Shown in pieces: positions 6,486-42,722 of a stretch of DNA of 64,000 nt (the stretch's first letter is position 1; each line of letters opens with the position of its first letter). The notes below the pieces were generated by a model. The model ran no database searches. It saw only the letters and a program-made list of their open reading frames with translations, and was not told the DNA's origin. The position numbers and the translations under genes were made by a program. The stretch is taken from the IMG/VR virus record IMGVR_UViG_3300024239_000112. The stretch is one strand, 5' to 3'. This DNA is from an uncultured virus (IMG/VR IMGVR_UViG_3300024239_000112). Lineage: Duplodnaviria > Heunggongvirae > Uroviricota > Caudoviricetes.

Positions 6486-6812
6486 ATGAAGAAGATTTTG
6501 CTGCTGGCGGCGCTTAGTGCCCTTGTTGGCTGCCAGCCGACCCCTGAAGACAAGGTCCGTGAGGCCATGTTGGCCAGCCCCGAGATCCTGGTACCGAAGA
6601 CTGTGGAGTTGCGCCAGGTGCGCGAGGTCGGGTCGGTGATCTGCGGCAAGCTGTCCCACGAGTCGAGCAAGGGGCGTACCGAGTTCCTGGACTTCTACGT
6701 CCAGGCGGGGCAGATTCGCCTGATCACCGCCGAGGACTACCAGCCCGGGAATGAAGGGCACCGCCTGTTCCACCAGGAAGAGTGCCTTACCAGCCAACCC
6801 GCTCAGAGCTGA
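6486..6812 (+). CDS. Lipoprotein (moron-like, opposite strand)
   Basis: MKKILLLAALSALVG-C lipobox; GAGGA SD; start corrected to 6486. Confidence 0.75.
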   Translation: MKKILLLAALSALVGCQPTPEDKVREAMLASPEILVPKTVELRQVREVGSVICGKLSHESSKGRTEFLDFYVQAGQIRLITAEDYQPGNEGHRLFHQEECLTSQPAQS

Positions 6813-8553
6813 ACCCTTCCGGCACCCCGCCGGCCGACTCGCGGTTGCTACCCACCCTCACTCTGCCCACCATCGGGGCGGCGCCGATGATCTCGGCGTT
6901 GCCCAGGTCCTCTACCGCCATAGCTGCGATGGTCGAGTAGTTCAGGGCATGTACCCAGTGGTCGGTGTCATCGGTCTTGATGAACCGCTCGACCATATCC
7001 CCGTCAGTTCCGCGCTGGCGGATCTTCTTGGTGGTCTTCAGGTGGGCGAAGATCTCCTTGGTCAGCTCCTCCTTCACCGGGTAGTGCACTTCCCCGGCGT
7101 TGTGCTGAGCCAAGGTCAGCGACAGGGTCTTGGTCCTGTCGGCGTTGATCACATCCCCTGCAGCGCTCTCTGCGATCGGCAGGATGCCTGCCACCCGCTG
7201 CACGTAGACCACAGCGGTGATGTTGGGCCGGGCGCCGACCAGGTTGTTCACCAGGGTGATGTCCGGGCCGGCGTCGATGCACAGGCGGGCCATGCGGTAG
7301 TAGTCGAAGCGGGCCAGCACCTGGGGTGTAGCTGGATCATCGCGGGTGTTGCGGATTTTCTCGGCCCAGACGACGTGCCAGTGCTTGCCTACCTTCGCCT
7401 TGACGATCAGGTGGCAGGTCTTGCCGATGTCCATGCCGCCCACGGTCTGGCAGGTGACGATGTACTGCTGGTAGATCCACAGCTGCACGTCGCTCGTACG
7501 CCGGCGGTGCTCGTCGGTCACGATGAAGGTGTTCTCAGCGTCAGAGTACGGCAAGCCTATAACGAAGTTGTAGAAGTCGCTCTTGAGCGGGTAGTCGCCG
7601 ATCTGCTTGATGATCGCCGGCGGCGTGTTGTACTTCGGCACGTCCCAGGGGTAGACCTGGTAGCTGTGGTCCCAGACATCAGGGCGCTTGGCCACCCACT
7701 GCCGGCGCTCAGGGTCTAGCAGACTGTCCTGCAGGTCTTTGCCGCAGCTGCTGCACTTGATGTAGGCGTCGCGGATTCGGTACCGGGTGTCGCGGATGTC
7801 CTCCCGGTTGAACTCCAGCATGCCTTTGTCGAAGCCTGGGACAATGAAGTCGTGGAAGAAGTCCGGCAGCACCCAGGTATGGCAGTGGCGGCACTTCACC
7901 ATGTAGAAGCGCTGGTCGCCAGCCTGGAACTCAGCATCCACTCCGTAGTCCTCAACGGTTGGCGTGGAGAACTTCATGCGGATGCCGCGGTTACCCATCT
8001 CGTCGACGAGCGAGGCGTGGCGCAGGCGGGAGTTGAGCTTTCCGAGGACGGCCTCGTTGGAGAAGTCCACCTCGTCGCTGATCACCACCTCAGCTGGTAC
8101 GGAAATCGCCGAGTTGGCGCCGAACGAGCCGGTGATGTAGAGGGTGCAGGTGCCGATCTTCTTCTGGCTGGCAGAGTTCTGGGCCTTCTGCACCAGGCCG
8201 CTGTAGAAGTCGGACTGGTCGATCGCACTGTCGAACCTGTCCTTTGAGAATGGCATCGCCATGTCTCGGGTTGGCAGAGTGAAAATCACCCGCGTGTGCT
8301 GCATGGTGCCGCACATCGCAAGGGTCTTTTGGACCATCAGCTCGGACAGGCCGACCTGCGAACACTTGCGCACCCCAATGCGGGAGCGCGTGTCACGGAT
8401 AATCTCGATCTGGAACTCGTGATCCTTGAAGGACCACTTCCGGCCGTTCGCGTAGCCGTACTTGAGCACGACCTTGTCGAGTTCGCGCAGCCCCTCCTCT
8501 CGGTTGAGCTGCATCCGTAGCCGGTTGGCTACGGAGCCGGATCCCTGGCTCAC
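6787..8553 (-). CDS. terL: Terminase large subunit, lambda gpA-like
   Basis: HEFQIEI adenine motif, KCSQVGLSE Walker A variant, VISDEVD Walker B, STPT, GDQR..CxxC, GMDIG nuclease motif, DHWVHA. Confidence 0.92.
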   Translation of the reverse strand: MSQGSGSVANRLRMQLNREEGLRELDKVVLKYGYANGRKWSFKDHEFQIEIIRDTRSRIGVRKCSQVGLSELMVQKTLAMCGTMQHTRVIFTLPTRDMAMPFSKDRFDSAIDQSDFYSGLVQKAQNSASQKKIGTCTLYITGSFGANSAISVPAEVVISDEVDFSNEAVLGKLNSRLRHASLVDEMGNRGIRMKFSTPTVEDYGVDAEFQAGDQRFYMVKCRHCHTWVLPDFFHDFIVPGFDKGMLEFNREDIRDTRYRIRDAYIKCSSCGKDLQDSLLDPERRQWVAKRPDVWDHSYQVYPWDVPKYNTPPAIIKQIGDYPLKSDFYNFVIGLPYSDAENTFIVTDEHRRRTSDVQLWIYQQYIVTCQTVGGMDIGKTCHLIVKAKVGKHWHVVWAEKIRNTRDDPATPQVLARFDYYRMARLCIDAGPDITLVNNLVGARPNITAVVYVQRVAGILPIAESAAGDVINADRTKTLSLTLAQHNAGEVHYPVKEELTKEIFAHLKTTKKIRQRGTDGDMVERFIKTDDTDHWVHALNYSTIAAMAVEDLGNAEIIGAAPMVGRVRVGSNRESAGGVPEGFSSERVGW

Positions 8554-8768: not shown

Positions 8769-9028
8769 TGCAATATCCTTAATGGGTAACAGGCCTACTT
8801 CACTCTGGCCGCGCCGTAAATCTTAGACGTTCCAATTAGTAACAAAAAGGTCACATATTTGACTGAAATATCAGGAAATAGCTGTCGCTAACCCACCTGA
8901 TATTTTTATACCATTGCAAAACCATAACGGTTTCACGGACAAACCCATCTATTTCGCGGGTTTCAGAGGCTTACACATCAAGTTACAAATGCTGGCAAAA
9001 CGCCTCTGGATTTGTACACACTTGTGAA

Positions 9029-9562
9029 CTACTGAGCCTCGCCACCCTGCTCAATCCGCTCTAGCTCAAGCAAAACCTGCTCCTGCTGCTCGCGGGTTAG
9101 GCAGCGTTCCATCACTCGCCGCAATGCCTCTTCCTGCTTCTGCACCCGGTCCAGGGTGTAGATCTTCGGCAGGTCTCTCACCATCACCTGTGTCACCTTC
9201 AGTGACAGATTCAAGGCGTCCTTCAGCGGGATGTCGTAGTCCTCGGAGTTCGCAGTGACCGTGCCGTCGGCGTTGACGATGCGGCGCAGCACTGTGTCCA
9301 CCAGGCTGATCTGCTGCTTGAACGTCATCAGCACGCTGGCATCGAGGCCGGCGATCTTCGACACCATGTCCCGTCGAGCTGACGGAGACATGGCCGAGAT
9401 CAGCGCTAGCTGAACGTCCTCCGGAAGTAGGTCCTGCTTGAGGGCGCCAATCACGTCCTCAACGGCGCCGGCCAAAGACGGGTCCCTATCGAACAGGGTC
9501 GACTCACCGAGCACACGCAGAGGGTTGATGCCCTCTGGCAGGAACTCCTTCCGGGCTTCCAT
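9029..9562 (-). CDS. Putative terminase small subunit
   Basis: 177 aa, helical, upstream of terL; positional inference only. Confidence 0.45.
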   Translation of the reverse strand: MEARKEFLPEGINPLRVLGESTLFDRDPSLAGAVEDVIGALKQDLLPEDVQLALISAMSPSARRDMVSKIAGLDASVLMTFKQQISLVDTVLRRIVNADGTVTANSEDYDIPLKDALNLSLKVTQVMVRDLPKIYTLDRVQKQEEALRRVMERCLTREQQEQVLLELERIEQGGEAQ

Positions 9563-9840
9563 CAGGAGCGGACCAGGTTCTTGCTGCAGGTGAAGACCAG
9601 GGCGGTACGGGCCGGCACCTGGACGGCGTGGGCCAGGACGCCGCTCTTCACGGTGCGCGGAGCACGCTTGCGGGCGGTGAACTTGCCGAACTCACGGATG
9701 GAGAGGCTGCCGCGCTCGAAGGTGATCTGCTCGATGCCGGCGATCACGGATTCGACGGTGGCTTTGGCGGCGGTCTTGGAGAGGCCGAGGTCGCTGGCGA
9801 CGTGGTCGATCAGGTCCTGGCGGGAGGCGGTTTCGGTCAT
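9562..9840 (-). CDS. HU/IHF-like DNA-binding protein
   Basis: RQDLIDHVA..LSK..A...VE, LSIREFGKF..RKRAPR, VPAR..VF..SK.L signature. Confidence 0.9.
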   Translation of the reverse strand: MTETASRQDLIDHVASDLGLSKTAAKATVESVIAGIEQITFERGSLSIREFGKFTARKRAPRTVKSGVLAHAVQVPARTALVFTCSKNLVRS

Positions 9841-10102
9841 GGCTGGATTCCTTTGAAGTTGTCGGCGTATGGGTAGCCGTATCTCTGTATTGACGGGCGA
9901 AGAATACGGATTTTATGGGGATATGTAAATACGGGTGTATGGGAGAATTTCGTGGGGATTTGGGGTGTTGCGGAGGGGGACGGGGTGGGCCTGGTGGAGG
10001 GGTGACGGGGTCGGCGAGGGGGAGAAAGCCAGTAACGGCGGGGTTTACGGCGGGGTGAAAGGGTGTAAGAGTATAAGGGGCTTAGGAAATTGGTAAATTT
10101 TT

Positions 10103-10114
10103 GGGCGTGGACCT
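10103..10114. other. Candidate cosN (12-nt cohesive end) GGGCGTGGACCT
   Basis: 10/12 identical to the lambda cohesive end GGGCGGCGACCT; lies upstream of the terminase genes; terminase is gpA-like. Confidence 0.5.
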
Positions 10115-10208
10115 AGGCGGGCGCGGTGGCTTCGGCCTGACAAAAAACAAGGGGCGGGGCGTCTCGGTTTTTTCTTCTGTTTTTTCTTCAATTTGTCCGC
10201 CTTTTTTG

Positions 10209-10238
10209 TTGACTTACTCCAATTGCCCCCCCTAATAT
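10209..10238 (+). promoter_or_regulatory. Strong sigma70 early promoter
   Basis: TTGACT-18-TAATAT preceded by T-tracts (UP-element-like, 10168-10207). Confidence 0.7.
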
Positions 10239-10315
10239 TCATCCCAAGCCGGACGGATTAACCGACCGGCCTAGGGGGGCGGCCTAGTCGCCCCCCGCCA
10301 GCGCCCCGCGCTGGC

Positions 10316-10327
10316 CGTTCTTTAACA
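10316..10327 (+). promoter_or_regulatory. boxA antitermination element 1 (CGTTCTTTAACA)
   Basis: Matches the GYTCTTTAANA consensus; directly preceded by hairpin 10297-10315 (rrn-like boxB-boxA order). Confidence 0.7.
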
Positions 10328-10623
10328 CTGCCAGCCCATGCCCCGCACCTATGCGGCATGGATTGACGCCAGCCCCGGCGACGGGGTGACGCGCCCCCCT
10401 TTGCCCCGCCACTGGCGGGGGATGCTACGGCACTGGCCTAGCATCCCCCGGCCTAGTGGATGACGGGGCAATGGTCAAACAGTAGACGGCCTAACGGCCT
10501 GAGCTGGGGGTAAATCAGGCGCGACCATGCCCCGGCGGCAAAGTGTTACCGGCTTGTCACCCTACGGGGATGACGGGCGGAGCTTTGCCTGCTGAATAGG
10601 GCGAGCATGGTTCTAGGCTCGGG

Positions 10624-10661
10624 CCTGTATTTATGGGTTTATGTTCCCCCGTATATACCGC
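10624..10661. promoter_or_regulatory. Operator pair within the early leader
   Basis: CCTGTATTTATGGG at 10624 and CCCGTATATACCGC at 10648; 24-bp period. Confidence 0.7.
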
Positions 10662-10664
10662 CGA

Positions 10665-10677
10665 CGTTATTTAACAA
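10665..10677 (+). promoter_or_regulatory. boxA-like element 2 (CGTTATTTAACAA)
   Basis: One mismatch to the boxA consensus; precedes a second long rod. Confidence 0.5.
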
Positions 10678-10936
10678 TCCACCGCTTTGCCCCGTGATCC
10701 GCGCCACCAGTGCGCCCCGCCGTTGCCCCCGTCTGTTATCGCCGCCAGTGCCGACGATAGCGAAAAAGACGCAAACAACGGCCAGCACTGGCGGCCTTAT
10801 CACTGCAAAGCACGGAAACGAAAACGGCGCCCCCAACAACGGGGCGCCCCATTGCCCCCAGTGGCTTTGACTATGCGCCCCACCATCGGGGCGCATAGCA
10901 AAACCCACTAGAAAACAGAAAACAGGAAATCACAAA

Positions 10937-11647
10937 ATGAAAAAAGCCCCCGTTATCACCATCCGCGGCCAGATCATCACTGCCCAGCAAATTAACGGCA
11001 TCGCCGGCAAGCTGGCCAGCCAATCGGAAAACATCACCGTCTGGGCGAACTACTGCGCCATCCATGCCGTCGCCTTCCATAACACTGCCCCCCTTGCCGC
11101 CATGCTGCAAAATCCGGCATTCAAGCTGGCGAGCGGCAAGGCTTCCAAGCTGGGCGGCGAAGTGCTGGCTTACATTCGAGCCCACGCCCCGCAAATCGGC
11201 CTAGATGCCGAAAGCGGCGCCCCGAAAGTGGCCAAGATGGGCGAACAAAATCCCCAGCGCGGCCAGTTCCAAAACCCTGCCGAGCGTGACGAAAACGGCA
11301 AGGCCGCCATTGTTGCCCCCGGTGACTTCGCCCTGACATTCGACGAATGGCGCAATCTGGAGAAGGCGACCAAGGAAAAGGCCGAGCCGAAAATTAAGGC
11401 CGCCACCATTGCCAAAAAACTGGCCGAGGTTGGTGCCGCCATGCAAGCCGGAAAACTGGTGGCCAGCGCCGAGGAACTGGCCGAGCTGGCCGAGGCTGCA
11501 AAGGCGCTTTTTCTGGCGCTGGATTCGCAGCGCAGCGCCGAGGCTGCAAAGGCCGAGCCGGTGGACGTGGCAAAGGCCGCCGAGCTGCTGAAAAGCGGCC
11601 AAGGTGGCAAGGCGACCCGCGCCGGCAAGAAAGTGGCCGCAGTCTAA
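10937..11647 (+). CDS. First early protein, unknown function
   Basis: 236 aa, A/K-rich; AGGAAATCAC initiation region. Confidence 0.8.
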   Translation: MKKAPVITIRGQIITAQQINGIAGKLASQSENITVWANYCAIHAVAFHNTAPLAAMLQNPAFKLASGKASKLGGEVLAYIRAHAPQIGLDAESGAPKVAKMGEQNPQRGQFQNPAERDENGKAAIVAPGDFALTFDEWRNLEKATKEKAEPKIKAATIAKKLAEVGAAMQAGKLVASAEELAELAEAAKALFLALDSQRSAEAAKAEPVDVAKAAELLKSGQGGKATRAGKKVAAV

Positions 11648-11694
11648 TTCATCCGGCGCCCCGGTCGGGGCGCCACTTTTCAAGGGGTTAAGCC

Positions 11695-11886
11695 ATGCAA
11701 GCATCTTCCGCTTTCGCTAAATACACCGCAGCTTTTGATGCCGTTTACGCCGAGATAAACGGCAAACGCGGGGCCAATATCCTCGCCGCGCACGACGCCA
11801 TAAGCGACGTGCTCGACAGCGCCCTGCTAACCCGTGACTGGGAGCAGGCGGCCGCGCAGCTGGACGCAATCCGGTCATCGCTCTAA
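11695..11886 (+). CDS. Hypothetical early protein
   Basis: 63 aa; AAGGGG SD. Confidence 0.6.
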   Translation: MQASSAFAKYTAAFDAVYAEINGKRGANILAAHDAISDVLDSALLTRDWEQAAAQLDAIRSSL

Positions 11887-11890
11887 CCCC

Positions 11891-11915
11891 AAGGCCCGAA
11901 AGGGCCTTTTTCTTT
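11891..11915 (+). terminator. Intrinsic terminator
   Basis: AAGGCCC-GAAA-GGGCCTT followed by TTTCTTT. Confidence 0.8.
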
Positions 11916-12236
11916 ACGCGCGTGCGTGTGCACACCGGTGCGCGCCCAGCCTGCCAGCCCTATAGGAAAGCCCAGCCTGCCGGCTGAAGGGTTCCCTAAA
12001 ATTCCAGGTAAAAGCCTCAGAAATTACCGGGCCTAGGTCGCCAGCTGCCCACCGCTGTGGGTTCACAAGGAGGTGCGCCGTTATGGGCAAGAGATAGATC
12101 AGCCGGTTGAACCGGCCAACCAGCACCACAGCCGATACGACGTGCGGCCTGCTGTGGTGGCGTTCCCCTGAGCCGCTCGGTGGGATTGGCGCCCCCTTCG
12201 CAACTCAACCAGCCACAACGACGCGAAACACCCCTG

Positions 12237-12282
12237 CCAGCGCGACGCCGACGCCCCCAGCCGGCGCCGCGCTGGTCTTTTT
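12237..12282 (+). terminator. Intrinsic terminator-like hairpin upstream of the 12334 gene
   Basis: CCAGCGCG...CGCGCTGG followed by TCTTTTT. Confidence 0.55.
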
Positions 12283-12333
12283 GCACCTCGCAACGCCCTC
12301 AAAAATAGAAATCAGAACTAGGAAATCACGAAA

Positions 12334-12828
12334 ATGACCAACGTAACCCCGCTGACCACCGCATCCCTGCCGTCGTTCCGCCTGCAAAAGCTGGCCGACG
12401 CTCACAGCGCCAAGGTCATCCCGCGTCTGGATCTGCCCACCCCGAACATCTACTTCGTCACGGTCAACTGCGCTATCGACGGCAGTGTGAACCACCTCTA
12501 CGTGGCCGCTGACTTCTCCGGCGCCGCCCTGCGCAAGGTGCAGAACATCTGCTCCGACAAGCACGGCTTCCGCCCCTACCGCAGCAACAGCGTCATCAAG
12601 ATGCGCCGGCTACGTTTGCAGGACATGCTGGAAACCCCGTCGGCGCTGGGCAAGGCCATCGAAACGGCCAAGGAGCTGGGCGAGAAGGACATCGTCGCCG
12701 CCCTGGAGAAACGCCCCGAGCAGATTGCCACCCTGCTGCAAGGTCCGGCTGCCGAGCGTGTTGACTTCGACGCTGTCGCCCGAGCCCTCGCCGAGCAGCT
12801 GCGCACCCTGGACAAACTCCCGGCGTAA
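12334..12828 (+). CDS. Hypothetical early protein
   Basis: 164 aa; same AGGAAATCAC initiation motif as the 10937 gene. Confidence 0.8.
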   Translation: MTNVTPLTTASLPSFRLQKLADAHSAKVIPRLDLPTPNIYFVTVNCAIDGSVNHLYVAADFSGAALRKVQNICSDKHGFRPYRSNSVIKMRRLRLQDMLETPSALGKAIETAKELGEKDIVAALEKRPEQIATLLQGPAAERVDFDAVARALAEQLRTLDKLPA

Positions 12829-12925
12829 CTGCCGACCTGTATTTACAGGTCTGCCACATCCTCACCCAGCACGATGGCCACACGTAAAGGTGGCCACGAC
12901 GCCCACACGCAAAGGTGGCCATGCC

Positions 12926-13207
12926 ATGTTCGATTTCCAGCAGGTTCCCAGCCGCACCGGCGGCACCATCTCCCGCCTCGACGACGGCGACGTTGTCATG
13001 CAGGTGGCCTTCCACACCGGCGAGTGCAATTCCGGCTTCGATTTTCTGCGCATCAGCGGCGCTGTGACCGTCGGCGACGTGCAGCGTTTCAGTACCCAGT
13101 ACCACATGACGCCCAGCGCCACGCCGTACATCGAGGACGTCGCCATCGACCTGCGGGCCATCGCCATCTTCACGGGCAGCACCAAGGATCGCCGCCATGC
13201 AGCCTGA
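12926..13207 (+). CDS. Hypothetical protein
   Basis: MFDFQQVP..., 93 aa, good codon bias; start corrected. Confidence 0.65.
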   Translation: MFDFQQVPSRTGGTISRLDDGDVVMQVAFHTGECNSGFDFLRISGAVTVGDVQRFSTQYHMTPSATPYIEDVAIDLRAIAIFTGSTKDRRHAA

Positions 13208-13421
13208 CAGCGTCACGCAGGTGTTCGGCCTGCTTCTGGTGCAGCTGGGAATCCCGGCCCCGTTCTCGGTGCTGATCGCCGTGCTCAGCCTGTTCATGGT
13301 GCCGGCGCTGATCGTCGGCGTGGTTGACGTGCAGATGGCCCGGCGAGAGCGAGCAGCGTGGACACGGACCAAGAGGTCGGCGAAGGATCGGCGCCGGTTT
13401 GCGGCGGCGCGGGCGGCGTAA
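13197..13421 (+). CDS. Small membrane protein
   Basis: Hydrophobic stretch followed by an Arg-rich tail. Confidence 0.6.
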   Translation: MQPDSVTQVFGLLLVQLGIPAPFSVLIAVLSLFMVPALIVGVVDVQMARRERAAWTRTKRSAKDRRRFAAARAA

Positions 13422-13439
13422 CCCGAAAAGCATCGCAGG

Positions 13440-14340
13440 TGAGAGTCAAAAGCCCGCGCCGCGGCGCCATTCAGGCTGCTGGTGAGGTTTTCAGCAGGTG
13501 GGTGGTAGGGTAGGTGCGGGTGGGTGGTAATGAGGGATACAGCGAGCATTCTCGCTGTATCTAAATATGTAGATATATTGGTAGGGGTACCTCCTATATA
13601 TATATATTTCTCTTATATAGAAGTAGTAGTAGTAGTAGGGGGTATATTTTGGTTGTGTACTTTATGCAGAGGTACTCTAATGGAGAGGTACCCCACAGAC
13701 GTGCTACAAAACGCAAAAATTTTTTAGAGGCGCTGAACCCCTATATCTGAACCTGGTGTGTGGTTTTCGCAGATGGGCATAGATTCCCGCCCTGCACGAC
13801 GCCCACGCCCTCCCCCAGCCCCTCCCCCTCCACCTCCAACCGACGCCCTCCCCCTGATTCTACGCGGCCTCCAGCCCGACGCCCTGAATCACAACGGTGC
13901 CCACACCGTCCCCGAGGAGGACAACATAAAATCACGGCCTCCTTACACTCTTACACTTTCCAGTTGAGAGTCATTCCGTACAACTAAATCCCTGCATATT
14001 CGCTCTTAAATGAGAATCATATGCAGGCGACGAACGGTAGGTGTTTTTCAGACCCTTTTGCCAACTTGCTACGGGACTTTTTATGTTCTTACACCGAGTT
14101 GGTCAAATAACGCTCAGTTTTCCCTGAGTCTCATGTCCTTATATGTCCGCCACTGTCCGGGCTTTATAAGGACATAAGATTCCTATGCCAACTTGCCCCG
14201 AAGGAACTTGCGAAAGTTATCTTCGTACTCCGCTTACAAACTTACACTTTCTCAAGATGTCCGTACTTGTCTTGAAGTTTTTAGTGTAGGCCGTTTGACA
14301 TCTTACAAGTTTATACCCCCGCCCCTCCTCAGTATTAAGG
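13440..14340. other. Non-coding origin-like region
   Basis: G-rich to AT-rich to C-rich switch; 11-bp inverted repeat at 13536-13561; (TA)n and (GTA)n runs; repeated CTTACA(C). Confidence 0.4.
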
Positions 14341-33768: not shown

Positions 33769-33958
33769 GTACGTGTCCACTTCCCAGCTGTGCGACCGGT
33801 ATCACCGGTCGAGTCGCACGCTGGCCCGTTGGCCTGAGACCAAGGGCTTCCCACGCCCTGTGATGCAGAGCGTGGGGGCCGAGAACCTCTGGCTACTCTC
33901 CGACGTGGAGAAGTGGGAAGCCGAGAACATGAAGTCCACGTTTGCCCTGGCAAGCTAG
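33743..33958 (+). CDS. xis: Excisionase / AlpA-like recombination directionality factor
   Basis: Winged HTH pattern: LC.RY..S..TL.RW...GFPRP...W..SDV..WE; adjacent to int. Confidence 0.75.
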   Translation: MQPTMQPPKYVSTSQLCDRYHRSSRTLARWPETKGFPRPVMQSVGAENLWLLSDVEKWEAENMKSTFALAS

Positions 33959-35178
33959 CCCCGTGGTGGGGTCGCAACAATCTCCTGGATGCGGTCCCAC
34001 CACTTCTTGTAGGCGGCAGCCTGCTCCTCAAGATAGAGGTGGCGGTCGTACACACCTTGCATACCCTTCAGGCTGTGTCCGAGCATCACTTCAGCAACAT
34101 GCACATCGGTGAGCGACGAGAAGTTCGTCCTCGCCGTCTTCCGCAGGTCGTGCAGTGACCAGTGCGCCATCTCCGTGCCGAACCGGCGCTTCGCAGCCTT
34201 CCTCACTGCGTAGGGGTAACTGAGCACCGAGGACGAGTCCAGTACCTTGAGCGACGAGTCCTGGGTGAACAGGTGCTGCGGAGACCTCGAGTAGCTCAGC
34301 GCGTCCTTTAATAGGGGCACAACTTCTGGGATCAGCGGCCGGGTGATAGCCCGCCTGATCTTCTTCCTGATCTTGTTCTTCTCCGGCGGCACGACCCAGG
34401 TCATGGCGTCGAAGTCCAGCTCGGTGCGGGGGTCGATGTTCCGCAGCTCCCCGTTGCGGCAGCCAAAGAACAGGCACAGCTTCAGGTAGAGCTTGCTCTT
34501 CGGAGTCATCCGAGACTGATCGACTGAGTGCCAGAACAGGCATATCTCCTCGTCGCTGAGCGCCCTGCCCGCTTCGTTGCGCTCGATGTTGAGATCCTCG
34601 GCCACGGAAACGTCCACCAGCGGCTTAGTCTTCATCGACTGCCGGCGGTAGGCCCACTTGTGCATCTGCTTGGTGGTCCGGAGGATCCGCTCAGCGATGC
34701 TCGGCGCATCGTCAGCCACCTTCTCTACCAGGCTGAGCCACTGGTTGGCTGTGGTCTGGTCAGCAGGCAGATCGCCAAGCACAGGGAAGACGTGTATCTC
34801 GAACGACCGCAGGTACTCCCCCGCCTGCTGCTTGTTCGCCAGGCAGTATTTCTCGTGGAAATCCCGGTACAGCTGCTCATTGGTCAGCTGGCCAGAGAGT
34901 TCTGCCCGCTCGACCTTCCTGACTGTACGGGGGTCATGCCCCTTCTCCAGCTCAGCCTTCAGCCGAAGGTGTTCGCTGCGGGCCTCTCGCAGGGACAGCA
35001 GGGGGTATGTACCCAGGTCGAGTCGGGCAGGCTTGCCTCCGATCCGGTACCGCATCTGGAAGACGATCTTCCCCTGCGGTGATACCCGGGCGCTGAGCCC
35101 GTCCCCGTCCGCCTTTTCGATAGCCTTCTCTTGAGGCTTTTTATGGTTGGCTTTTAGCCAAGAATCTGTTAGGGCCAT
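33955..35178 (-). CDS. int: Tyrosine integrase, P4-like, with N-terminal arm-binding domain
   Basis: MALTDSWLK, DGDGL..RV, LG.YP.LSL.EAR; catalytic R(GCRNGE), K, HDLR, LGH, Y; start corrected to 35178. Confidence 0.95.
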   Translation of the reverse strand: MALTDSWLKANHKKPQEKAIEKADGDGLSARVSPQGKIVFQMRYRIGGKPARLDLGTYPLLSLREARSEHLRLKAELEKGHDPRTVRKVERAELSGQLTNEQLYRDFHEKYCLANKQQAGEYLRSFEIHVFPVLGDLPADQTTANQWLSLVEKVADDAPSIAERILRTTKQMHKWAYRRQSMKTKPLVDVSVAEDLNIERNEAGRALSDEEICLFWHSVDQSRMTPKSKLYLKLCLFFGCRNGELRNIDPRTELDFDAMTWVVPPEKNKIRKKIRRAITRPLIPEVVPLLKDALSYSRSPQHLFTQDSSLKVLDSSSVLSYPYAVRKAAKRRFGTEMAHWSLHDLRKTARTNFSSLTDVHVAEVMLGHSLKGMQGVYDRHLYLEEQAAAYKKWWDRIQEIVATPPRG

Positions 35179-35190
35179 GTGATTTCCAGC

Positions 35191-35487
35191 GTGTACAAAC
35201 CTAGACAGCAGCGAGCGTAGCATTTTCGGTGTTTGTACGCAGCTTTGTACACGCTTGAGCTGGCTGATATTGGTCGCTGGTGGCGGAAGGTGTCTTAGGT
35301 TTTAACAGTGAAACCAGCTATTTATCTACGTTGGAGCGGGGATATTGGCGGGGGATGTCGGGGGGTGTCAGGGGGTCAGAGGTTTATGTGGGCGATGATG
35401 CTGAAGTTGCGTATGTGGCTGAGATCACTGGACTTTTTGGCTTCTGACATCACGCTAAACCTGAAATTTGTACACCGATTTGTACAC
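35191..35487. mobile_element. attP: five arm-type sites (TTTGTACRC) flanking a lepA-homologous core
   Basis: Repeats at 35191-35199 (inverted), 35232, 35244, 35467 and 35479 (12-bp period); GGGGG(N)TGTC repeats at 35350-35380; core approximately 35386-35400. Confidence 0.85.
35376..35450 (-). other. lepA: Replacement 5' end of host lepA (MSEAKKSSDLSHIRNFSIIAHI-NL*)
   Basis: Translation matches the Pseudomonas LepA N-terminus (M)SDLSHIRNFSIIAHI, then diverges where DHGKS would follow. Confidence 0.85.
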
Positions 35488-42458: not shown

Positions 42459-42722
42459 ATGCAGATCACAGCCCACGAAGACAGAGTTCACCACGCTGAC
42501 CCGGTAGACCGGGCCTCCCACGAGGAGCAGCTCGCCCTGGACGCCGCCATCAAGACGGCGCTGAACAAGCGGGAGCCCGCCCTGAAAGCGGTGGGCACCT
42601 GCTACAACTGCGGCGAAGTGTTCGGCGACGACGAGCAGTCTCTGCGCTTCTGCGACGAGGACTGCCGCGACGACTACGAGCATCGAATGACTCGCCGCCG
42701 GGTAAACGGAACCCTCCAATGA
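42459..42722 (+). CDS. C4 Zn-finger protein, DksA/TraR-like
   Basis: ADPVDRAS..E; CYNC...FCDEDC. Confidence 0.55.
   Translation: MQITAHEDRVHHADPVDRASHEEQLALDAAIKTALNKREPALKAVGTCYNCGEVFGDDEQSLRFCDEDCRDDYEHRMTRRRVNGTLQ

What the first reader, a model, noticed from the sequence alone, without database searches (positions are those of the whole stretch)
10245..10900. ~660-nt densely paired RNA as the first early transcript, with two boxA modules: candidate novel large phage ncRNA or RNA antiterminator
Seen: the stretch between the strong promoter (10209-10238) and the first early ORF (10937) has no credible ORF, and most of it can pair. There are three short hairpins (10248-10315), then boxA1 (10316). 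Rod 10401-10471 pairs TTGCCCCG/CGGGGCAA, CCACTGG/CTAGTGG and CGGGGGATGCTA/TAGCATCCCCCG, enclosed by CGCGCC 10390/GGCGCG 10518. Rod 10524-10611 pairs ACCATGC/GCATGGT, GGCAAAGT/GCTTTGCC and GCTTGTCA/TGACGGGC. An operator pair and boxA2 (10665) follow, then a ~130-nt rod 10684-10811 (GCTTTGC/GCAAAGC, GTGAT/ATCAC, CCAGTGC/GCACTGG, GCCGTTG/CAACGGC, CGTCT/AGACG, GTTATCG/CGATAGC) and three more hairpins. The stem mismatches I checked are G-U on the + strand, which favours selection on RNA rather than on DNA cruciforms. Known: boxA recruits NusB/NusE, HK022 put RNAs antiterminate in cis, and T7 early hairpins are RNase III sites. Inference: this is either an elaborate antitermination/processing leader or a stand-alone RNA (decoy or anti-defence) made immediately on injection. 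I recognise no Rfam family.
Basis: partly seen in the sequence, partly recalled or inferred. Interest (0 to 1): 0.85.

Follow-up and report, generated by a model that had tools for sequence, protein, structure and literature searches.

The report
Folded phage leader RNA with boxA
A roughly 690-base untranslated, intricately folded RNA heads the early genes of this phage and its relatives and carries boxA, the host's ribosomal-RNA "keep transcribing" signal, so the virus probably borrows the host's rRNA antitermination machinery; the fold matches no described RNA family.

Summary
Window 10245-10936 folds far better than shuffles (z -15). It has the lowest folding energy of 91 equal-sized windows of this genome.

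The stretch lies between a sigma70-type promoter (10209-10238) and the first early gene (10937). The phage is siphovirus-like, related to Pseudomonas phages Lana, PMBT3 and UAntarctica.

In 14 distinct relatives the fold is kept by compensatory changes. 95.5% of cells pair, against 36-43% when partners are slid, and 41 of 111 pairs change on both sides. This includes long-range helices.

boxA1 (10317-10327) is the only perfect match to the gamma-proteobacterial boxA consensus in 64 kb. A GYTCTTTAA core sits 551-655 nt upstream of the first gene in all 20 sequences examined, cultured phages included. A weaker second boxA follows at 10666.

No Rfam family matches.

Best reading: a structured early-operon leader that recruits the host Nus factors. 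What the about 600 nt of conserved fold does beyond that is unknown.

No RNA data exist.

The scan has noted boxA-headed structured leaders in other phage groups before. I found none in print.

The parts
10209..10238 (+). sigma70-type promoter: -35 TTGACT (10209-10214), 18-nt spacer, -10 TAATAT (10233-10238). The predicted start near 10245 is inferred.
   Evidence: 9 of 12 matches. The -10 hexamer aligns with TACTAT, TATTAT, TATAGT or CATAGT in the 13 relatives of A3. The spacer differs between window and L004 while both hexamer positions are kept. The strict scan found no promoter in L013 or Lana.
10248..10315 (+). 5' module of three hairpins: 10248-10270, 10274-10296 and 10297-10315. The last closes 1 nt before boxA1, a boxB-like position.
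   Evidence: Compensatory changes against L004 in the second hairpin. In the other subgroup a nested helix closes 0-5 nt before boxA instead.
10317..10327 (+). boxA1, GTTCTTTAACA
   Evidence: Only perfect match to GYTCTTTAANA in 64 kb. The consensus is from PMC5725501 (passages read). A GYTCTTTAA core is present in 20 of 20 sequences at -551 to -655 from the first gene. Unpaired in the MFE and the consensus fold.
10355..10531 (+). Domain I, a multi-branch domain closed by the long-range helix 10355-10361 / 10525-10531. It holds hairpin 10383-10397 and the rod 10401-10471.
   Evidence: Helix 6: 99% of cells paired, 4 of 7 pairs change on both sides, one pair shows UA, AU, GC and CG. Helix 7: 4 of 6 pairs change on both sides. 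Window coordinates. The interior differs between subgroups.
10533..10663 (+). Domain II: helix 10533-10538 / 10658-10663, hairpin 10552-10578 with a UACG tetraloop and tandem U.G pairs, helix 10587-10591 / 10614-10618, and the palindrome/hairpin 10625-10636 (CTGTATTTATGG).
   Evidence: helices 9-12. U.G pairs kept in 14/14 and 13/14 sequences. Loop is UACG in 12, UCCG in 1 and UAUG in 1 of 14. An alternative local rod, GGCAAAG/CTTTGCC, appears in single-sequence folds.
10666..10676 (+). boxA2, GTTATTTAACA, a degenerate boxA
   Evidence: One mismatch (C4 to A) to GYTCTTTAANA. Aligned with GATCATTAAAA in 11 relatives and with ACTCTTTAACA, ATTCTTTAACA or CCTCCTTAACA in Lana, UAntarctica, L016 and PMBT3. 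Unpaired in the folds.
10684..10811 (+). Domain III, a rod of about 128 nt
   Evidence: Same rod in the separate MFE folds of 14 of 14 relatives. Consensus fold of A5: 36 pairs, 10 with changes on both sides. GCTTTG/CAAAGC changes to GCTCCG/CGGAGC and TGAT/ATCA to CGAT/ATCG.
10814..10822 (+). Conserved, mostly unpaired linker GGAAACGAA
   Evidence: Near-invariant in 14 of 14 sequences. Its role is unknown.
10825..10849 (+). G+C-rich hairpin
   Evidence: helix 18: 6 of 8 pairs change on both sides.
10860..10909 (+). Terminal hairpin of about 22 pair positions with a conserved GA/CA internal loop. It is a candidate RNase III or protein site, and it ends 27 nt before the ATG.
   Evidence: helix 19: 7 of 17 pairs change on both sides. 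Model R1, built from 10818-10912 and its relatives, finds the positional counterparts in Lana (28.6 bits, E 1e-4) and PMBT3 (26.6 bits, E 3e-4). The processing role is inferred.
10924..10939 (+). AGGA ribosome-binding site (10924-10927) and ATG (10937-10939) of the first early gene E1 (10937-11647, 236 aa, no family)
   Evidence: No PHROG or Pfam match. Homologues stand at the same place in all relatives.
11891..11916 (+). Intrinsic-terminator-like hairpin and U-run after the second early gene. This is a likely end of the unmodified immediate-early transcript.
   Evidence: Counterparts in similar positions on the early-gene strand in L013 (2534-2515) and Lana (L022 1088-1061).

Best explanation
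Window 10245-10936 is the untranslated, highly structured 5' leader RNA of the rightward early operon. Host sigma70 RNA polymerase transcribes it from the promoter at 10209-10238.

About 70 nt into the transcript, just after a hairpin, lies a single-stranded rrn-type boxA (10317-10327). As in ribosomal RNA operons, it would nucleate the NusB-NusE(S10) complex with NusA, NusG and SuhB on the polymerase. That makes the polymerase resistant to Rho, and perhaps faster. It could then cross 600 nt of ribosome-free, C-rich RNA and continue into the long co-directional early gene array, past the terminator after the second gene. A weaker second boxA (10666) would reinforce this, much like the spacer boxA of rrn operons.

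The three folded domains and two terminal hairpins are kept by selection on RNA pairing. They most likely act in cis, by shielding the leader from Rho and RNases and by offering processing sites. The about 22-pair terminal hairpin and the long-range helices look like RNase III substrates.

Shown: the fold, its conservation, the boxA sequence and its conservation.
Inferred: transcription, Nus binding, Rho resistance, processing.
For: 1. Folding far beyond shuffles and beyond the rest of the genome.
2. The same about 1-kb gene-free gap lies between the HU-like gene and the E1 homologue in every relative. A gap of about 850-900 bp lies upstream of the E1 homologue in Lana, UAntarctica and PMBT3.
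3. Consensus fold of 14 distinct sequences (A3): 111 pairs, 41 with changes on both sides. 95.5% of cells pair against 36-43% when slid. Covariation score 0.304 against 0.05-0.08. 0 of 500 shuffles reach it.
4. Recent compensatory changes between the window and its 89.6%-identical relative: GGGGG/CCCCC to GGGCG/CGCCC, ACTATG/CATAGC to ACAATG/CATTGC, CGTC/GACG to TGTC/GACA.
5. The window's own MFE projected on A3 pairs 70% of cells, against 33-44% when slid.
6. boxA1 is the only perfect GYTCTTTAANA in 64 kb. The core is kept in 20 of 20 sequences at a similar distance from the gene. The five distant ones read CGCTCTTTAACAA.
7. boxA1 and boxA2 are unpaired in the MFE and the consensus fold.
8. 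No intrinsic terminator stands between the leader and E1. A terminator follows the second gene here, and one stands in a similar place in L013 and Lana.
9. No phage RNA polymerase, sigma factor or antiterminator family was found among the 77 proteins scanned.
10. A UNCG tetraloop on the + strand is kept as UACG or UCCG in 13 of 14 sequences.
Against: - There are no RNA data. No run on record as RNA holds the stretch, and the four runs laid are probably DNA.
- The strict promoter scan finds a site in the window only. It finds none at the homologous place in L013 or Lana.
- 12 of the 14 core sequences have C instead of A at the last consensus position of boxA1.
- boxA2 departs at position 4. The cited study mutated that position, together with position 6, to abolish function. 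Relatives depart at two positions.
- The wobble test does not pick a strand. The - strand consensus fold is even lower in energy (-136.9 against -120.1). In the last hairpin, conserved A.C mismatches would be G.U on the - strand.
- boxA needs only about 11 nt, so this reading does not explain why about 600 nt of specific architecture is conserved.
- Many of the two-sided changes separate only two clades (the window trio against the rest), so independent events are fewer than cells.
- From recall: rrn-type complexes act mainly on Rho-dependent terminators, not intrinsic ones.
Confidence: 0.58

Rival explanations
1. The leader is mainly a vehicle for a stand-alone large non-coding RNA. boxA only guards its synthesis, as in an rRNA operon. 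Domains I-III are cut out, for example by RNase III at the long-range helices and the terminal hairpin, and act in trans as a decoy, a sponge for Nus factors or ribosomal proteins, or an anti-defence RNA.
For: - The conserved multi-domain architecture has long-range closing helices that flank both boxA elements.
- About 600 nt is far more than antitermination needs.
- The terminal hairpin with its fixed internal loop is conserved as far as Lana and PMBT3.
- The layout of boxA, structured RNA, boxA, structured RNA recalls an rrn operon.
- The scan's earlier unchecked notes describe boxA-headed structured RNAs in other phage groups.
Against: - No terminator or mapped 3' end separates the RNA from E1.
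- There are no expression or processing data.
- No partner is known.
- The interiors of domains I and II differ between subgroups. That fits a scaffold better than a precise machine.
Confidence: 0.22
2. The region is a lambda-type nut region. boxA plus an adjacent hairpin is read by an unrecognised phage-encoded N-like antiterminator, not by host factors alone.
For: - Hairpins stand directly before and 15-25 nt after boxA1 in all relatives.
- Most early proteins have no assigned family, so an N-like protein could be hidden among them.
- Lambda and mEp021 use boxA plus boxB with N-like proteins (PMC11893012, passages read).
Against: - No antiterminator family was found among the 77 proteins scanned.
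- The boxA is rrn-type, GCTCTTTAACAA in the distant relatives, rather than the shortened lambda form (recalled).
- The flanking hairpins are not conserved in sequence or loop across the clade.
- An N-like protein would first have to be made from this same transcript.
Confidence: 0.1
3. The pairing is selected at the DNA level, or on the opposite strand. Possibilities are an origin, a packaging site, cruciform or single-strand hairpins, a protein-binding array, or a leftward antisense RNA.
For: - The - strand folds as well, and its consensus fold has lower energy.
- A.C mismatches in the last hairpin would be wobble pairs on the - strand.
- The region lies beside the packaging genes.
- A conserved palindrome, CTGTATTTACAG, recurs near the leftward promoter in relatives.
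Against: - Covarying helices span 170 and 125 nt.
- boxA is oriented with the early genes in 20 of 20 sequences.
- A UNCG loop and tandem U.G pairs sit on the + strand.
- No leftward promoter or gene lies downstream of the region.
- Model R1 scores 66.9 bits on the + strand against 27.5 on the - strand.
- The TGCCCC repeats I noticed in the window do not recur in the aligned relatives.
Confidence: 0.05

Closest known systems
Bacterial rrn operon leader and 16S-23S spacer (boxB-boxA-boxC) with the Nus-factor antitermination complex (NusA, NusB, NusE/S10, NusG, SuhB)
   Same: - rrn-type boxA sequence: a perfect GYTCTTTAANA here, GCTCTTTAACAA in distant relatives.
- It sits just after a hairpin, a short way downstream of a sigma70-type promoter.
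- A second boxA lies further in.
- Each boxA is followed by long, untranslated, highly structured RNA with long-range helices.
   Different: - It is phage-borne and heads protein-coding early genes rather than rRNA.
- The structured RNA is about 600 nt and matches no rRNA or Rfam family.
- boxA2 is degenerate.
- I did not test for boxC.
- Nus binding is untested.
Lambda-type nut sites (boxA + boxB with N protein), including the N-leader RNase III hairpin, and mEp021 Gp17 with three nut sites
   Same: A promoter-proximal boxA in the leader of the first early gene of a phage, hairpins beside it, a large hairpin between boxA and the ribosome-binding site, and terminators downstream to be read through.
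   Different: - No N-like protein was found.
- No conserved boxB-like loop.
- The boxA is the full rrn type.
- The leader is about three times longer than I recall the lambda N leader to be, and it has multiple domains.
HK022 put RNAs
   Same: A structured nascent phage RNA placed just downstream of early promoters and linked with read-through of terminators.
   Different: By recall, put is two short stem-loops that act directly on polymerase without Nus factors or boxA. Here boxA is present and the RNA is about 10 times larger. Not tested.
Large ornate bacterial and phage RNAs (GOLLD, ROOL, OLE)
   Same: It is hundreds of nucleotides long, has a multi-domain fold supported by covariation, is phage-associated and has no known function.
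   Different: No match to any Rfam model at gathering or at E up to 10. It is placed as a 5' leader with boxA, not beside tRNAs.
T7 early mRNA RNase III processing hairpins
   Same: A hairpin of about 22 pair positions with an internal loop stands just upstream of a ribosome-binding site in an early polycistronic transcript.
   Different: This is a resemblance from recall only. There are no cleavage data and I did not test any sequence similarity.

Membership tests
rrn-type boxA (Nus-factor loading signal) | Sequence matches the gamma-proteobacterial consensus GYTCTTTAANA | tested here: met
   boxA1 at 10317-10327 is a perfect match and the only one in 64 kb. The consensus is from PMC5725501. 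The five distant relatives also match all 11 positions. 12 of the 14 core sequences differ at position 11 only.
rrn-type boxA (Nus-factor loading signal) | The second element (boxA2) also matches the consensus | tested here: not met
   10666-10676 GTTATTTAACA has C4 changed to A. Relatives read GATCATTAAAA, with two mismatches. It is a degenerate boxA-like element at best.
rrn-type boxA (Nus-factor loading signal) | Lies on the transcribed strand, downstream of a promoter, in a single-stranded context | tested here: inconclusive
   Its orientation matches the early genes in 20 of 20 sequences. It is unpaired in the MFE and consensus folds. A promoter is predicted in the window but not by the strict scan in L013 or Lana. 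No transcript data exist.
rrn-type boxA (Nus-factor loading signal) | Binds NusB-NusE and confers resistance to Rho | not testable with these tools
   Needs binding assays and reporter or ChIP experiments.
rrn leader (boxB-boxA-boxC) | A hairpin (boxB) just upstream of boxA and a boxC element downstream | tested here: inconclusive
   A helix closes 0-5 nt before boxA1 in most of the sequences folded, but its form differs between subgroups. I did not search for boxC because I had no tool-derived consensus.
Lambda nut (boxA + boxB + N) | A phage-encoded N-like arginine-rich antiterminator and a conserved boxB loop | tested here: inconclusive
   No antiterminator family among the 77 proteins scanned against PHROGs. 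E1 to E3 have no Pfam match. Hairpin loops next to boxA are not conserved. Absence from family libraries does not exclude a novel N.
Any Rfam family (GOLLD, ROOL, OLE, riboswitches, leaders and others) | Reaches the family's gathering score | tested here: not met
   0 matches at gathering over the whole window. At E up to 10 the best match is 23.3 bits against a gathering score of 55.
Conserved structured RNA (generic criterion) | Pairing kept through compensatory substitutions, beyond controls | tested here: met
   41 of 111 pairs change on both sides, against 6-15 when slid. 0 of 500 shuffles reach the observed covariation score.

The most novel reading that the evidence does not exclude
This is one member of an undescribed class of phage RNAs built like miniature ribosomal-RNA operons. 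A host promoter and rrn-type boxA elements guard the synthesis and folding of a large structured RNA. That RNA is cut out at its long-range helices and acts in trans early in infection, for example by titrating Nus factors, ribosomal proteins or RNases, or by disarming a host defence.
Probability: 0.2. Interest if true: 0.9.

Novelty: new variant of a known kind. Interest (0 to 1): 0.72.

Why it matters
By recall, boxA-driven antitermination is textbook biology for rRNA operons and for lambda with its N protein. The papers my searches listed added host sites such as the suhB 5' UTR (PMC5725501, passages read) and mentioned CRISPR arrays (search listing).

A non-lambdoid phage clade that places a full rrn-type boxA at the head of its early operon would extend that biology. 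It would mean phages can take over the host's rRNA transcription machinery without an N protein. The about 600 nt of covariation-supported RNA that follows matches no known family, and it adds a new large structured RNA whose purpose is open.

Three relatives are in culture (Lana, PMBT3, UAntarctica). The idea can therefore be tested directly with boxA point mutants, nus or rnc host mutants, and early-infection RNA-seq.

The scan's earlier unchecked notes report the same theme in phiEco32-like coliphages and cyanophages, so it may be a general phage strategy.

Tried and rejected
- DNA search of the leader against 50,697 phage records found no match. The nearest held virus record, G001, is a fragment without this region.
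- The window's own assembly is not held.
- Sequencing runs: no RNA holder is listed. The four runs labelled RNA-Seq that I laid are, by the tool's own mark, probably DNA. Their contigs cover structural genes and leader alike, so they say nothing on expression.
- Wobble (G.U against A.C) strand test: equivocal.
- N4-like hairpin promoters were considered and dropped. The largest ORF is a 1200-aa DNA polymerase and there is no giant virion RNA polymerase.
- Iterons or an origin (TGCCCC eight times, GGCCTAG four times, seen) were dropped. These words are particular to the window trio and are not kept in the other relatives.
- Rfam matches at E up to 10 are noise: miRNA and leader models at 11-23 bits.
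- A pattern for the conserved UNCG hairpin found only the 11 IMG/VR contigs already in hand.
- Model R1 gave no match at E up to 1 in UAntarctica, L016 or L017, although similar hairpins are visible by eye there.
- The alignment of the five distant leaders (A4) is too poor for a reliable consensus. Its covariation term is +2.3.
- I reran it with 8 shuffles per sequence, so the z-scores are rough.
- Literature searches found no description of this leader. In the passages my term searches returned, the PMBT3 and Lana papers do not discuss it. Their supplements, including the promoter and terminator lists of PMBT3, were not read.
Full report
WHAT IS THERE

The window is a phage genome. Head and packaging genes run leftward from about 9840. 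They include the major head protein, protease, portal, large terminase at 6787-8553 and an HU-like DNA-binding protein at 9562-9840.

A long array of rightward genes starts at 10937. It includes Dda-like and other helicases, primase, DNA polymerase, ligase and thymidylate synthase. No phage RNA polymerase, sigma factor or antiterminator family appeared among the 77 proteins scanned.

The nearest cultured relatives by large terminase are Pseudomonas phages Lana (62% aa), PMBT3 and UAntarctica.

The finding lies in the 1.1-kb divergent intergenic region 9841-10936.

CHECK OF THE OBSERVATION

- **Promoter.** TTGACT-18-TAATAT is at 10209-10238.
- **Coding potential.** Between 10245 and 10936 the only ORFs are mechanical ones of 89 aa or less. 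A relative 89.6% identical in DNA (L004) differs by several single-base indels inside them, as do related contigs from wastewater (table 4). The stretch is not coding.
- **Folding against shuffles.** As RNA the + strand folds to -353.2 kcal/mol, against -275.7 +/- 5.1 for 20 dinucleotide shuffles (z -15.1). The - strand gives z -10.9.
- **Folding against the genome.** The leader has the lowest energy of 91 non-overlapping 692-nt windows: -351.4, against a minimum of -337.2 among the other 90. The GC-adjusted residual is z -3.7.
The hairpins, both boxA positions and the three rods are in the sequence.
- **Rfam.** Nothing at gathering thresholds over the whole window, and only noise at E up to 10.

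RELATIVES

Protein-anchored searches gave related loci in IMG/VR and metagenomes. All of those that span the region keep the order HU-like gene, about 1-kb gap, E1 homologue. Lana, UAntarctica and PMBT3 have annotated gaps of about 850-900 bp upstream of their E1 homologues.

I used 14 distinct sequences for the core analysis:
- the window;
- ten IMG/VR contigs: L004, L005, L007-L014;
- three metagenome contigs: L023, L024, L026.

Left out:
- L001/L003, identical to the window;
- L025, identical to L014;
- loci that do not reach the region: L006, L015, L018-L020;
- five distant leaders (Lana, UAntarctica, PMBT3, L016, L017), which I analysed apart.

All eleven leaders first tested fold better than shuffles on both strands, with z about -4 to -8 for the relatives. 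Only 8 shuffles each were used, so the values are rough. The distant five give z -2.6 to -10.7.

COVARIATION

The RNAalifold consensus of the 14 (alignment A3) has 111 pairs, and 41 of them have sequences changed on both sides with pairing kept. Counting on that structure against the tool's controls gave these figures.

| Measure | Observed | Partners slid 1-3 columns |
|---|---|---|
| Cells forming a standard pair | 95.5% | 36-43% |
| Pairs with two-sided changes | 41 | 6-15 |
| Covariation score | 0.304 | 0.05-0.08 |

None of 500 shuffles reached the observed covariation score.

The best-supported element is a long-range helix, 10355-10361 with 10525-10531. It encloses about 165 nt. 99% of its cells pair, and one pair shows UA, AU, GC and CG among the sequences.

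Other supported helices, in window coordinates:
- 10383-88 / 10392-97;
- 10533-38 / 10658-63;
- the hairpin 10552-62 / 10567-78;
- 10587-91 / 10614-18;
- the rod 10684-10811;
- the hairpins 10825-10849 and 10860-10909.

The rod appears in the separate minimum-energy folds of all 14 sequences and in a consensus of the rod alone.

The window and its 89.6% relative already differ by compensatory pairs in three hairpins. These are recent, independent events.

The window's own MFE, projected on the alignment, pairs 70% of cells against 33-44% when slid. Much, but not all, of the single-sequence fold is therefore conserved.

A caution: many two-sided changes separate just two clades, the window trio against the rest. 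Events are fewer than cells.

- The proposed enclosing helix CGCGCC 10390 / GGCGCG 10518 clashes with the covarying hairpin 10383-97.
- ACCATGC 10524 / GCATGGT 10605 is not kept in relatives, where the 10525 segment pairs upstream instead.
- GGCAAAGT/GCTTTGCC is seen in single-sequence folds of most relatives with changed sequence (GCATGG/CCATGC). It competes with the consensus helix 10533-38 / 10658-63, so I leave domain II partly unresolved.

WHICH STRAND

- With G.U allowed, the + strand consensus has 132 G.U and 22 A.C cells.
- The - strand consensus has more pairs (133), lower energy (-136.9 against -120.1) and 237 G.U cells.
- With G.U forbidden, the ratio on the + strand is 30 to 16.
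- In the last hairpin, conserved A.C and C.A mismatches would be wobble pairs on the - strand.

Four other features assign the strand to +:
- boxA is oriented with the early genes in 20 of 20 sequences;
- the promoter and the downstream genes point the same way;
- the 10552-78 hairpin has a UNCG tetraloop closed by C-G (UACG in 12, UCCG in 1, UAUG in 1 of 14) and tandem U.G pairs kept in 14 and 13 of 14;
- a covariance model of the 3' module scores 66.9 bits on the + strand against 27.5 on the - strand.

boxA

The consensus GYTCTTTAANA for gamma-proteobacteria comes from Baniulyte et al. 2017 (PMC5725501, passages read).

- **boxA1.** 10317-10327 is the only perfect match in the 64-kb window. 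The core GYTCTTTAA is present in all 20 sequences examined (19 distinct), 551-655 nt upstream of the first gene. The five distant relatives read CGCTCTTTAACAA, the full rrn form. 12 of the 14 core sequences have C at the last position. boxA1 is invariant while its flanks vary. It is unpaired in the folds. A helix closes just before it in most sequences.
- **boxA2.** 10666-10676 has one mismatch at position 4. The cited study changed that position, together with position 6, to abolish function. Relatives carry GATCATTAAAA, or ACTCTTTAACA in Lana and UAntarctica. I call it a degenerate boxA.

WIDER CONSERVATION

Model R1 was built from the last two hairpins of the 14. It finds the counterparts directly upstream of the first gene in Lana (E 1e-4) and PMBT3 (E 3e-4). 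It finds none at E up to 1 in UAntarctica, L016 or L017.

The terminal hairpin keeps a GA/CA internal loop across the clade. The two-boxA layout and the terminal hairpin thus extend to phages whose terminase is only about 60% identical. The interior sequences do not.

HOW IT MOST LIKELY WORKS

Host polymerase starts near 10245. A hairpin and then boxA1 emerge within about 80 nt. NusB-NusE and the other Nus factors load as on rrn transcripts. The modified polymerase resists Rho while crossing 600 nt of untranslated RNA and continues into the early genes.

An intrinsic-terminator-like hairpin with a U-run follows the second gene at 11891-11916. Similar sites follow the first genes in L013 and Lana. 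An unmodified transcript would probably end there.

The fold itself is under selection. I take it to act in cis, as a shield against Rho and nucleases and as a source of processing sites. This is inference.

The size and conserved architecture are not explained by antitermination alone. That keeps the stand-alone RNA reading alive.

KNOWN THINGS COMPARED

It works most like an rrn leader and spacer. It differs in being viral, in heading protein genes and in its novel RNA.

It resembles lambda nut and the N leader in position, but no N-like protein or boxB-type loop was found. mEp021 shows that non-lambdoid phages can use N-like proteins with boxA/boxB sites (PMC11893012, passages read), so a hidden N cannot be excluded.

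No Rfam family fits.

NOVELTY AND LITERATURE

Six full-text searches found no description of a boxA-headed structured leader in these or other lytic-type phages. In the passages my term searches returned, the PMBT3 and Lana papers do not discuss the gap. Their supplements were not read.

The scan's own earlier notes are unchecked AI notes. They describe the same theme in phiEco32-like coliphages, cyanophages and a low-GC phage, and one of them partly fell on later check. They did not change my reading, but they suggest the theme is general.

WHAT IS MISSING

There is no evidence of transcription, ends, processing or factor binding. No RNA holder was listed, and the laid runs are probably DNA.

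Noticed in passing
window 9962-10070: G-rich direct repeats at about 25-nt and 33-37-nt spacing (GGGGTGACGGGGT-like) on the + strand, just upstream of the early promoter (families D2 and D5-D7). L004 has them and L014 partly does; the other relatives lack them. Their purpose is unknown. A packaging or protein-binding array is possible.
   Followed up: partly
window 10624-10637; relatives' leaders and the region of their leftward promoter: A palindrome, CCTGTATTTACAGG, is imperfect in the window. It is conserved just before boxA2 in all 14 leaders. A tandem CTGTAAACCTGTATTTG stands near the leftward promoter in the relatives. It could be an operator for a DNA-binding protein or an RNA hairpin. 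Its spacing is CTG-N6-CAG, shorter than the LexA-box spacing as I recall it.
   Followed up: partly
window 33955-35223 (-): A tyrosine integrase (phrog_1, E 4e-58) sits on the opposite strand in the middle of the rightward gene array, next to a low-GC stretch at 35-37 kb. The cultured relative PMBT3 is described as virulent, with no integrase (PMC8421299, passage).
   Followed up: no
window 13149-13840: This window has the most negative GC-adjusted folding energy among the tiled 692-nt windows, which do not include the leader's exact span (residual -49 kcal/mol). Only small ORFs without family matches lie there. It may hold another structured RNA.
   Followed up: no
window 11891-11916; L013 2534-2515; L022 1088-1061: Intrinsic-terminator-like hairpins with GAAA or UUCG loops and U-runs follow the first one to three early genes in the window, in L013 and in Lana. 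This suggests a short immediate-early unit.
   Followed up: partly
window 42459-42719 (+): A DksA-like zinc-finger protein (phrog_54, E 2e-8) is encoded among the replication genes. By recall, host DksA acts on rRNA promoters, so it is a curiosity beside an rrn-like leader.
   Followed up: no
window 10127-10175: A UUCG-capped hairpin (GGCTTCGGCC) and a terminator-like hairpin with a T-run (10151-10165, then TTTTTT) stand on the + strand immediately upstream of the early promoter, with no + strand gene before them. Both are conserved in L004.
   Followed up: no
window 9000-13000, laid runs X8, X11, X12 and X13: Contigs 85-99% alike to this region occur in four wastewater runs of one study. Relatives of this phage are therefore present outside the subsurface samples that hold the exact sequence.
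   Followed up: partly
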